A program made the translations under genes and the position numbers. DNA of 57,405 bases, taken from contig JAEOUH010000010.1 in assembly GCA_016839365.1 (NCBI GenBank), forward strand, positions 1 to 57,405, given 5' to 3'. How positions within the stretch are numbered: position 1 is the stretch's first letter; each line of letters opens with the position of its first letter. The notes beneath the pieces were generated by a model, which had not been told where the DNA came from, did not search any database, and was given only the letters and a program-made list of their open reading frames with translations. The DNA comes from Candidatus Hermodarchaeota archaeon (GTDB lineage Archaea > Asgardarchaeota > Hermodarchaeia > Hermodarchaeales > Hermodarchaeaceae). This document shows positions 41,921 to 44,331 of this stretch, in pieces.

Positions 41921-43135
41921 GTGCCATCCTTACGAGAACTTCTCCGTCATGAAGGTGTTGCAGCCTTCGTTGTCTTCTTGGCATTTTGTAGTATTGTGTG
42001 GATCATTTTTCTTTCGTATTCGTGGGGGGTCGACTTCGTACCTCGTCTTGCATTGGATGATGATACGATGCACAAAACCGTCATTTATTATATGCTGCAT
42101 GGAGAGGATTTCTATACGGCATGGCGGCATGCAGCTCTTGTCACAGGAGACTTGGGGGATCTGAGGATTTATCGGACGCCATTAATCTTTTATCCAGTAG
42201 TCTTTCTAACGGGATGGGCGGGATCCAGCTTTATTTTTCCACTCAGCGTTCTTTGTGTCCTAGTGGCAGCGCTTAATCTAATTCTAACCTTTTGGGTTGT
42301 CCGGAACATCACTGGATCAGGTTGGGCAGCTTTAGCGGCGACTTTCATTCAATATGCCTTTTTCTTCAATGTCATCCCACTATTTCAAATTGCATTATTT
42401 GCGATGCCCTTTGTGATATTAGCCGTGTATTGGGCATGGACCGAGCATCCATGGCTTGCTGGCGGATTCATTGCCATCGCTTTTCTCATCAAGGAAACTT
42501 TTCTTTTTGCCCTTCCGGCGATTCTCATTTTCTTCGCGTTGCGGCGACAGGGACGTTCAGTAGGAATTATGATTATGATTTTCATAGCCGCTGTAGGTCT
42601 CTACTTGGTCCACACACTCATCGCCCAGCCCATCCCTGATCCCTCGATGATGTTGACAGCTAGTCCACCTGAATTCTTCATCAATTTAGCTGGATTTCTC
42701 TGGTTTGGATTCGGTGTAATCTATTATAATGTCATTGCCCCAGCCGCTTTCCAAGGCTACTATCCTTCGAATCCAGTCCCAGCGTTTTTACCATTACCCC
42801 TTTTCAATGGTATCTTAATGCTTCAAGTTATTCTTGTCTGGGGAACTATCAGCTGGTGGTTTATCCGAGTTATTCGTAAGCATGTGCGCCCTCCCATTCC
42901 TCTCCTGTTCCTAGCTCTGTTACTGTGGCTCGTTCCGGTTATTTTCGCTGCCACGACGCATGTGAGTGATTTTGCCTTGTATTGGGTTGATTACGCGATA
43001 TGGCGGTGGTTCGGGGCATCTTATGTGGGATTTTCACTCCTTGTGGGTCTAAGTTGGACGGATATACGATCAATCTTCACCAAACCCTCGGAACACACTT
43101 CAACTAACCATCCTGTGACTGGTGATTTGGGATGA
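41921..43135 (+). CDS. Polytopic membrane protein, possibly a GT-C-fold glycosyltransferase
   Basis: TM1 followed by an acidic DDD loop, YRTP, A.LIKE motif, ~10 TM. Confidence 0.65.
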   Translation: MPSLRELLRHEGVAAFVVFLAFCSIVWIIFLSYSWGVDFVPRLALDDDTMHKTVIYYMLHGEDFYTAWRHAALVTGDLGDLRIYRTPLIFYPVVFLTGWAGSSFIFPLSVLCVLVAALNLILTFWVVRNITGSGWAALAATFIQYAFFFNVIPLFQIALFAMPFVILAVYWAWTEHPWLAGGFIAIAFLIKETFLFALPAILIFFALRRQGRSVGIMIMIFIAAVGLYLVHTLIAQPIPDPSMMLTASPPEFFINLAGFLWFGFGVIYYNVIAPAAFQGYYPSNPVPAFLPLPLFNGILMLQVILVWGTISWWFIRVIRKHVRPPIPLLFLALLLWLVPVIFAATTHVSDFALYWVDYAIWRWFGASYVGFSLLVGLSWTDIRSIFTKPSEHTSTNHPVTGDLG

Positions 43136-43200
43136 AAATGGCTCAAGACCGTTGTGCCTTCATTTACACAAGTAGTATAAAAAGTAGCCAACGACCATAA

Positions 43201-43415
43201 GAATCTGTTACTAACGATTCCAGATTAGGCATTACTCTTGGCGTTTGCCTCTTGACCGAGGGCGGCGTTTGACCTCCGGCGCCCTCGCTCCTTTTGGTTT
43301 AGTAACGCAGCAGATGCATGGGAAGCATCAGGGGATTACCGATGACCCCTCCGGCTTCGTGGCCTTGGATGGCGAGGCATTCCATCATTTTAAACCGGCA
43401 GAGCGAAGAAGATTC
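43201..43415 (+). ncRNA. Candidate structured non-coding RNA of unknown family
   Basis: TATAAAAA at 43176-43183; ~53% GC by hand count; at least 7 helices, including a long helix 43285-43301/43391-43406 with G-U pairs on the + strand; T5 tract at 43423-43427. Confidence 0.5.
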
Positions 43416-44331
43416 AATGAGATTTTTGGTGAGGCTTGCGAATTTCCCACACACGGGCTTTCCCATCTGCGGAACCGACGGCTAACCAACGTCGCTTGGG
43501 AGAAACGCTTACAGAATATACTCCTTTTATTGGTAATTCGTACTGTTTATCGATGTCACCAGACCGTAGATTCCACATTCGCACCCCGTAATCGATGGCG
43601 GCAGCCACCTTTTTGCTATCTGCGGTAAATGTTAGATCCATAGCTCGAGATTCGAGGGCTAGCGAATAGACTTGTTCCCAATTCCGTGTATCCCATATTA
43701 CCAGAGTCTCTTCATACCCAATTGATCCAAGTAATTCACCATTCGGTGAAAACTTCACTGCGTTGACAGCCGTTTCATGGCCTTGGAGTCGTTGAATGAG
43801 TTCGCATGAAGGGAAGGTCCAAAGATAGATATTCTCCCCAAGGCCAGCACCAATAAGATATTTGCCATCAGGGGAAAAATCAACGGAACTAACATTACGG
43901 CCGATTTCTGTTAAAGTTAAAAGCTCTTTACCTGTCTGAAGGTTCCAGATTTTTACTTCTCCATCGTAGGAGCCTGAAGCAATGTATTCACCCGTCGGGG
44001 ACACAGCTACTGTGGCTACGGTTTTTTTGTGCCCACTAAGTGTGTATTCAACATCTCCTGAAGAGTAATTCCAGATTTTAACTGTGTTATCTGTCGAACC
44101 TGTGACCAAAAATTCCATGGTTGGAGTTAATGCAATCGCATTGACACTATTCGTATGACCAAAGAAGGTGTGTTGTTGTGTCCACTCCTGAACTGTCCAT
44201 GCATGGACAAGGTTATCCTGTCCAGAGGTTAATAAAACGGAGTTGTCTGGTGAAAACAGGACTTTGGTGGTGTGACGCGTATGGGCATCGATGACAATTG
44301 GTGATTCCATAACCTTCACCAAAGTAACCAT
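43414..44331 (-). CDS. WD40-repeat beta-propeller protein (7 blades)
   Basis: Repeated GH...V..V.FSP.G..L.SGS.D..VKIW units. Confidence 0.95.
   Translation of the reverse strand: MVTLVKVMESPIVIDAHTRHTTKVLFSPDNSVLLTSGQDNLVHAWTVQEWTQQHTFFGHTNSVNAIALTPTMEFLVTGSTDNTVKIWNYSSGDVEYTLSGHKKTVATVAVSPTGEYIASGSYDGEVKIWNLQTGKELLTLTEIGRNVSSVDFSPDGKYLIGAGLGENIYLWTFPSCELIQRLQGHETAVNAVKFSPNGELLGSIGYEETLVIWDTRNWEQVYSLALESRAMDLTFTADSKKVAAAIDYGVRMWNLRSGDIDKQYELPIKGVYSVSVSPKRRWLAVGSADGKARVWEIRKPHQKSH

What the first reader, a model, noticed from the sequence alone, without database searches (positions are those of the whole stretch)
43176..43430. Unannotated ~215-nt structured RNA gene candidate between convergent genes
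Seen: the gap between two convergent CDS needs no promoter, yet has TATAAAAA (43176-43183) ~20-25 nt before a GC-enriched block (~53%; most other spacers here look more AT-rich). Helices: gaatc/gattc 43201-43220 (or gaatct with agattc 43410-43415 as a closing stem); aggca/tgcct 43227-43250; cgagggcg/cgccctcg 43257-43287. A long helix tcgctc..ttggttta (43285-43301) with taaaccgg..gagcga (43391-43406) encloses four hairpins: gatgc/gcatc 43313-43329, agggg/cccct 43330-43350, ggc/gcc, and gatgg/ccatc 43368-43386. An alternative pairing gttactaa 43207-43214 with ttagtaac 43299-43306 suggests a switch. G-U pairs favour the + strand. It is followed by AUUUUUG (43422-43428), which is both an archaeal U-tract terminator and an Sm-site consensus. 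I see no signature of tRNA, 5S, SRP, RNase P, C/D RNA or common riboswitches. Inference: a novel multi-branched ncRNA.
Basis: partly seen in the sequence, partly recalled or inferred. Interest (0 to 1): 0.85.

Follow-up and report, generated by a model that had tools for sequence, protein, structure and literature searches.

The report
K-turn small RNA of Hermodarchaeia
The gap holds a real, strongly conserved gene for a folded RNA of about 185 bases that matches no catalogued family and was found only in one class of Asgard archaea; it carries a textbook kink-turn, but its expression and its job are not shown.

Summary
Real ncRNA gene on the + strand, about 43207-43391. It is single-copy and syntenic in 14 of 19 Hermodarchaeia genomes (the other five break at or lack this locus) and was not found in 132 other Asgard genomes. 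Rfam gives no hit. The 5' domain stays 89-97% identical between most species whose 4-fold sites differ by 47-73%.

The 'switch' helix GUUACUAA/UUAGUAAC is the conserved, covarying closing stem. The long helix, the closing stem and the Sm site are not conserved; the 'Sm site' lies inside the WD40 coding sequence. The 3' part is a K-turn hairpin seen in all 16 homologues, predicted to bind L7Ae.

New here: in two lineages a TnpB guide-RNA cassette sits at the same position between the two modules, and both halves stay conserved.

It fails the C/D, H/ACA, SECIS and MITE tests. Best guess: a regulated, L7Ae-stabilised protein-binding RNA (0.4); rival: SD-masking sRNA (0.28). No transcript evidence was obtained. 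The scan already found this RNA in other genomes (e1-5395738, e1-5552301, e1-5638528).

The parts
43153..43169 (+). Conserved operator-like box TGTGCC-N6-TACAC just upstream of BRE/TATA; putative transcription-factor site
   Evidence: Present in all 14 genus-level sequences; the PWM with TATA hits once in the genome; promoter region 71-100% identical between homologues. Factor unknown (inference).
43176..43183 (+). TATA box
   Evidence: Conserved in all 16 homologues; 30-33 nt to the start of P1 in the 13 measured, so the start site is inferred at about 43204-43207.
43207..43391 (+). The ncRNA gene, about 185 nt; 3' end inferred from the U/pyrimidine tract (could run on to 43428 in this genus)
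   Evidence: Covariance model R2 match 43205-43391; G-U 14 versus A-C 2 among non-Watson-Crick cells of P1 and P3 favours +.
43207..43306 (+). P1 closing helix (43207-14 with 43299-306) around the 5' multi-branch domain
   Evidence: 97-100% of cells paired; three pairs with changes on both sides; outer pairs nearly invariant.
43227..43250 (+). P2 hairpin, genus-specific; its loop (43235-43243) carries a second copy of the CUCUUGGCG motif
   Evidence: 87% paired; absent in the second genus; perfect tandem copy in G006.
43248..43255 (+). S1: near-invariant CCUCUUGR segment
   Evidence: Invariant or nearly invariant columns in alignments A2 and A5, both genera.
43258..43286 (+). P3 hairpin
   Evidence: 95% paired, mostly G-U-type changes.
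43287..43295 (+). S2: anti-Shine-Dalgarno-like pyrimidine linker
   Evidence: Conserved in most of the genus, absent in the G005/G004 clade, different in the second genus.
43307..43329 (+). Conserved single-stranded joint (RCAGCA) and P4 hairpin with a UGGGAA-type loop
   Evidence: Among the most invariant columns; P4 92% paired; joint predicted unpaired in most homologues.
43333..43383 (+). 3' hairpin with a standard K-turn: bulged strand 43339-43348 (CC-GAU-GA-C-CC), other strand 43371-43377 (GG-C-GA-GG), variable apical hairpin 43347-43372, lower stem 43333-35/43381-83
   Evidence: Motif table over 16 homologues: bulge and both GA invariant, 4b:4n Watson-Crick in 16/16, 3b=C in 12/16. Key positions in this genome equal those of the tested Actinomyces-1 k-turn (PMC8191799).
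43334..43335 (.). Position equivalent to the junction where a TnpB guide-RNA cassette ends in G009, G004 and contig L068 (empty in this genome)
43388..43391 (+). U-tract after the last stem; likely terminator or 3' end
   Evidence: U/pyrimidine-rich tail at this place in most homologues; inference.
41921..43135 (+). Upstream neighbour: GT87-like membrane glycosyltransferase gene (context, constant in both genera)
43414..44331 (-). Convergent WD40 gene (context only; absent from the locus in the second genus).

Best explanation
A stand-alone, class-specific small RNA of Hermodarchaeia, transcribed from its own TATA promoter under a dedicated regulator (operator-like box). It has two modules: a compact 5' core (P1-P4) and a 3' K-turn hairpin. 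Most likely mechanism: L7Ae binds the K-turn and stabilises the RNA, while the 5' core folds into a surface that a protein recognises by sequence and shape (outer P1, the RCAGCA joint, P4 and the repeated CUCUUGG motif). It would then act as a regulated scaffold or sponge for an RNA-binding protein. Shown: gene, strand, selection, secondary structure, K-turn motif, modularity. Inferred: transcription, L7Ae binding, regulation, the protein partner. The confidence figure is for this mechanism; that it is a real ncRNA gene I put at about 0.92.
For: Selection is spread over helices and joints, not confined to a short seed: 5' domain 89-97% identical where 4-fold sites differ by 47-73%. Helix positions that could covary stay sequence-invariant (outer P1, 5' strand of P4). 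One motif is duplicated into a hairpin loop. The K-turn fits the published rules, and an L7Ae-family gene is in the genome. Fixed promoter spacing and a unique conserved upstream box. Alleles split by a roughly 180-245-nt TnpB cassette keep both halves: G004 versus L068 differ by 28% at 4-fold sites, 4% in the 5' domain and 0% in the promoter, with K-turn residues kept.
Against: No partner protein was identified and no binding can be shown here. Folding energy of this copy is not significant. Covariation in the K-turn hairpin is not above shuffles on the automatic alignment, and a K-loop reading of the same bases also pairs well. Homologues are few, related, and not independent. The C/U-rich segments fit a base-pairing role equally well.
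Confidence: 0.4

Rival explanations
1. Trans-acting sRNA that masks ribosome-binding sites with its anti-SD-like segments S1 and S2; candidate targets are tes (tetraether lipid synthase) and glmS.
For: The genome uses SD sequences. S2 is complementary over 9-11 nt to an AAGGAGCGA site conserved at the SD of glmS and tes in most of the genus. By inspection, control patterns AAGGAGCYA show no such genus-wide leaders. Precedent: M. mazei sRNA162 (PMC3510493).
Against: The G005/G004/G001 clade keeps both sites although the RNAs of G005 and G004 lack S2. GGAG-Y-GA can be a plain SD variant, and CGA is not specially enriched after AGGAG. With accessibility, tes ranks 198 and glmS 405 of 1928 leaders. 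Conservation covers far more than a seed.
Confidence: 0.28
2. A catalytic or ligand-binding RNA with an unrecognised tertiary fold (ribozyme or trans-acting aptamer).
For: Sequence-invariant joints and helices. A K-turn with 3b=C is of the class that folds in Mg2+ alone (PMC4382518 abstract, PMC8191799).
Against: No Rfam ribozyme or riboswitch match. HDV-like and twister topologies could not be mapped by inspection. No gene lies downstream on the same strand. No covarying pseudoknot was found.
Confidence: 0.1
3. An atypical modification or processing guide (C/D-, H/ACA- or U3-like) for rRNA or tRNA.
For: K-turn in the orientation of a terminal C/D motif; intron-rich rRNA genes in the class.
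Against: The boxes are not RUGAUGA/CUGA at the K-turn positions; no C'/D', no pocket, no conserved ACA. No conserved complement of 9 nt or more to family 16S or the assembled 23S parts.
Confidence: 0.08
4. A domesticated transposon guide-RNA scaffold whose 3' part is a guide.
For: The 5' module ends in GG exactly where TnpB guide cassettes also end in three alleles, so their guide would be the K-turn strand.
Against: No profile similarity to the local TnpB guide RNA. The would-be seed varies and pairs inside the K-turn hairpin. Only one tnpB, with its own guide RNA, was found in this genome.
Confidence: 0.06
5. Not an RNA gene: a DNA element, MITE or overlapping 3' UTR signals.
For: No transcript evidence; weak folding z-score in this genome.
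Against: Single copy and syntenic; strand-biased G-U changes; P1 covariation; persists when the convergent neighbour changes.
Confidence: 0.05

Closest known systems
Archaeal L7Ae-bound K-turn RNAs outside the guide classes (S. acidocaldarius RIP-seq, PMC5539422) and orphan K-turn motifs such as Actinomyces-1 (PMC8191799)
   Same: Stand-alone structured RNA with a standard K-turn; -1b:-1n C:G, 3b:3n C:C and 4b:4n C:G as in Actinomyces-1.
   Different: No sequence or model match; own 5' multi-branch core; found only in Hermodarchaeia.
Archaeal box C/D sRNAs (PMC7994747)
   Same: K-turn with the bulged strand 5' and the GA strand 3'; L7Ae binding predicted.
   Different: About 185 nt instead of 50-70; 4b:4n inverted (C:G); no C'/D'; interior is a variable hairpin, not guides; no rRNA complement.
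Asgard/eukaryote-type SECIS (PMC11227280)
   Same: AUGA_GA core under an upper stem; lies 3' of a same-strand gene.
   Different: No conserved apical adenines; upstream gene ends mostly in UAG/UAA; no tRNA-Sec over the cut-off; the paper reports Sec use in other clades only; own promoter.
SD-masking sRNAs of Methanosarcina (sRNA162, PMC3510493)
   Same: Intergenic, own promoter, C/U-rich single-stranded linkers.
   Different: Conservation covers the whole fold; K-turn; target pairing not supported by covariation.
U4 snRNA 5' stem-loop (from my own knowledge, not tested)
   Same: K-turn of the same orientation, bound by an L7Ae-family protein.
   Different: No Sm site outside the WD40 coding sequence; no U6-like partner found among non-coding islands; no Rfam match.

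Membership tests
Any Rfam family | Match at gathering score or a significant E-value | tested here: not met
   Best hit FIE3, E 3.7; no hit on the element in six homologous loci.
RNase P / SRP / 5S / tRNA | Is the genome's copy of that RNA | tested here: not met
   RNase P on C80 and SRP on C19; no ARAGORN gene on this contig; a 5S-like sequence on C19 by inspection.
Standard K-turn | 3-nt bulge followed by tandem G-A/A-G, flanked by C and NC helices | tested here: met
   16/16 have GAU-GA and the opposing GA; 4b:4n Watson-Crick 16/16; -1 pair C:G or U:G in 15/16. Covariation is not significant.
Standard K-turn | L7Ae binding and kinking | not testable with these tools
   An L7Ae-family gene is present; binding needs EMSA or FRET.
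Box C/D sRNA | C (RUGAUGA) and D (CUGA) boxes forming the K-turn, plus C'/D' | tested here: not met
   In K-turn register the strands read AUGACCC and GYGA; no second motif (definition).
Box C/D sRNA | Conserved 10-12-nt guide complementary to rRNA or tRNA | tested here: not met
   Only scattered, non-shared 9-11-nt matches to family 16S and 23S; tRNAs were not scanned systematically.
H/ACA sRNA | Pocket, GA stem of 8-11 bp below the K-turn, ACA 14-16 nt away (PMC4652768) | tested here: not met
   The GA stem is apical here; 3-5 bp in the K-loop reading; internal loop 1-3 nt; no conserved ACA.
SECIS | Selenoprotein gene upstream and Sec machinery | tested here: not met
   Upstream stop is UGA in 3 of 16; no tRNA-Sec over the cut-off in 5 genomes; clade not listed as Sec-using.
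Sm-class snRNA | Conserved single-stranded Sm site | tested here: not met
   The motif lies inside the WD40 coding sequence, varies, and is absent in the second genus. Lsm genes exist.
MITE | Dispersed copies, variable context | tested here: not met
   One copy per genome, same locus.
Y RNA / retron ncRNA | Ro60 (TROVE) or reverse transcriptase in the genome | tested here: not met
   Neither found in five incomplete genomes.
SD-masking trans sRNA | Conserved, covarying pairing with a target's ribosome-binding site | tested here: inconclusive
   Conserved sites in tes and glmS, but no covariation and mediocre rank.
ncRNA gene | Discrete transcript | not testable with these tools
   No RNA holder listed; see Tried and rejected.

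The most novel reading that the evidence does not exclude
A new class of Asgard ribonucleoprotein RNA: a modular L7Ae/K-turn RNA that is neither a C/D nor an H/ACA guide, with a protein- or RNA-binding core and a tolerant linker, hinting that Asgard archaea use snRNA-like (U4/U3-type) K-turn RNPs; the recurrent capture of its K-turn module by TnpB guide cassettes would show transposon guide RNAs being spliced into host RNA genes without loss of function.
Probability: 0.12. Interest if true: 0.85.

Novelty: new variant of a known kind. Interest (0 to 1): 0.5.

Why it matters
Outside the housekeeping set, almost no Asgard RNAs seem to be described (my literature searches found none for Hermodarchaeia). 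This one is kept in every assembled copy of its locus across a class, under selection far stronger than at neighbouring silent sites, so it probably does something important. It gives a concrete, cheap in vitro target: a defined fold, a K-turn with testable folding rules, and naturally split alleles that map its modules. If it proves to be a non-guide L7Ae RNP, it bears on how K-turn RNPs diversified before eukaryotes. Interest is limited because it is class-restricted, untested for expression, without a known function, and already noted by this scan in other genomes.

Tried and rejected
Expression: no RNA holder was listed, and three metatranscriptome contig sets laid nothing on the stretch; this is no evidence either way.

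Distant homologues: none with model R1 in 132 other Asgard genomes or with R2 and laxer filters in 21. Weak hits (G000 C37, L075/L085/L114) lie inside protein genes. One viral-contig pattern found nothing.

My first reading of the 3' part as a K-loop was replaced by the full K-turn, though it is not excluded.

WD40 as RNP partner: absent from the locus in the second genus.

Small peptide: the overlapping 127-aa ORF is not conserved; 1-nt indels and a lost AUG are visible in alignment A5.

rRNA guide, tracrRNA (no CRISPR-like array printed), partner ncRNA, SECIS, Y RNA and retron were tested and not supported. The upstream box showed no regulon with my PWM.

Pseudoknots, HDV-like, twister, group I and T-box readings were tried by eye; none had covariation. 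The sigma-70 scan is not applicable.

Full report
Setting. The window is contig C24 of a 2.2-Mb genome. One relative scores identically to a record titled Ca. Hermodarchaeum yapensis and others are titled Hermodarchaeota, so the organism is in Hermodarchaeia (Asgard). The gap 43136-43413 lies between a GT87-like glycosyltransferase gene (+) and a WD40 gene (-), followed by a geranylgeranyl reductase gene.

Observation. Rfam has no match. RNase P and SRP RNAs lie elsewhere. There is one copy in the genome.

Distribution. BLAST and two covariance models find one copy in 14 of 19 family genomes, in both genera, always behind the GT87-like gene. Two more copies come from metagenome contigs. In the five genomes without a hit, the contigs end at this locus or its marker genes are missing, so no loss is shown. 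It was not found in 132 other Asgard genomes searched. The second genus has no WD40 gene here, so the RNA is not tied to it.

Selection and strand. Between most species pairs whose 4-fold degenerate sites differ by 47-73%, the 5' domain is 89-97% identical and the promoter region 72-94%, while the spacer between TATA and start drifts. It falls to 57-67% only across the deepest splits. Among non-Watson-Crick cells of P1 and P3, 14 are G-U on + and 2 would be G-U on -. In the second genus the + strand folds at z about -6 and the - strand at -1 to -2. The TATA box sits 30-33 nt before P1 throughout, so the start is inferred at about 43204-43207. A box TGTGCC-N6-TACAC precedes it in the whole genus and is unique in the genome with my PWM; I read it as an operator (inference).

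Structure. Inside are P2 (one genus only), the near-invariant CCUCUUGR, P3 and a pyrimidine linker S2. P2's loop repeats the CUCUUGGCG motif. After P1 come a conserved RCAGCA joint and hairpin P4. AUUUUUG lies in the last codons of WD40 and has no counterpart without that gene, so the Sm reading fails. A U-tract at 43388-91 is the likelier end.

K-turn. I first read the 3' part as a K-loop. Bulge and both GA are invariant in 16/16; 4b:4n is Watson-Crick in 16/16; -1b:-1n is C:G in 10 and U:G in 5; 3b is C in 12. This genome has C:G, C:C and C:G at -1, 3 and 4, the same as the Actinomyces-1 k-turn that folds in Mg2+ (PMC8191799). The case rests on motif conservation. An L7Ae-family gene is present; binding is inferred.

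Natural split alleles. G009, G004 and contig L068 carry an insert of roughly 180-245 nt that ends at the same junction, equivalent to 43334/43335. It is the right end (guide-RNA scaffold) of a tnpB element that is dispersed in the family, here without tnpB and with its own TATA-like box. It ends in GG like IS607 elements (10.1101/2023.11.20.567912), but no IS607 transposase was found in five genomes, so the family is open. The G009 and G004/L068 inserts are 78% alike, no closer than other copies, and their hosts are far apart on the tree. Two independent insertions are the simpler reading; an old insertion with many losses is not excluded. Both halves stay conserved: G004 versus L068 differ by 28% at 4-fold sites, 4% in the 5' domain and 0% in the promoter, and K-turn residues are kept. 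In both lineages a new hairpin follows P4 (by inspection). So the RNA is two modules that tolerate separation.

Mechanism. Shown: gene, strand, fold, selection, modularity. Inferred: a regulated transcript whose K-turn binds L7Ae and whose 5' core is read by a protein. Conservation covers helices and joints rather than one seed, helix positions stay invariant where they could covary, and one motif is duplicated into a loop. I give this scaffold/sponge model 0.4. The main rival (0.28) is SD masking. S2 matches a site conserved at the SD of tes and glmS, and control patterns show no such leaders by inspection. But the clade whose RNA lacks S2 keeps the sites, the site can be an ordinary SD variant, and accessibility-aware ranking puts the two genes at 198 and 405 of 1928 (crude gene calls). 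Guide, ribozyme, transposon-scaffold and DNA-element readings are weaker (see rivals).

Comparison. It works like an L7Ae-type K-turn RNA but is not a C/D or H/ACA guide, not a SECIS, not an Sm RNA, MITE, Y RNA or retron RNA. My two literature searches on Asgard ncRNA found no description; the library is incomplete.

Verdict. A real, undescribed ncRNA family restricted to Hermodarchaeia, already noted by this scan in three other genomes. This report adds corrected boundaries, the K-turn register, the selection figures and the split alleles. Expression and function are not shown. Interest 0.5.

Noticed in passing
L007:1250-1420 (-), L013:1309-1462 (-), L068:2440-2610; G000 C59:2020-2177 (L020) and C14:9728-11007 (L046): A tnpB element family with a roughly 140-nt guide-RNA scaffold that has no Rfam match. 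Many copies lack tnpB and carry their own TATA-like box (solo guide cassettes); up to 17 matches per genome; ends in GG; no IS607 transposase found in five genomes.
   Followed up: partly
L047 (G009) and L030 (G002); L046 (G000) and L031 (G011): Guide cassettes or whole tnpB genes sit at orthologous sites in different species. In these loci the first bases of the guide recur just upstream of the element's promoter. Could be old insertions or domestication.
   Followed up: no
L301 about 1845-1885 (G000 C60, leader of tes): The tes leader has two overlapping conserved palindromes (ACCACT-N3-AGTGGT and GTGGT-A-ACCAC) across the genus: a likely operator or RNA switch for tetraether lipid synthesis.
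   Followed up: no
L302 about 1950-2010 (G000 C19, leader of glmS): Conserved promoter and leader motifs upstream of glmS, which starts with GTG in one genus and TTG in the other.
   Followed up: partly
L284 (G005 C71:619-4212): The 16S rRNA gene spans about 3.6 kb, with inserts even next to the anti-SD end; other family members give fragmented matches, which suggests many rRNA introns.
   Followed up: no
window:37155-41264: FeS-assembly domain protein, long coiled-coil protein, ThiF/E1-like enzyme and cysteine desulfurase cluster near the WD40 gene.
   Followed up: no
window:46650-50640: Genes that look like a heterodisulfide reductase (hdrB, hdrC, hdrA) cluster, judged from the translations only; open frames without in-frame UGA, in line with no Sec use.
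   Followed up: no
G000 C46:48063-48510, C32:38666-38862, C21:12725-12856, C24:51841-52180: Other GC-rich non-coding islands in this genome that may hold further RNA genes; some may be short ORFs missed by my mask.
   Followed up: no
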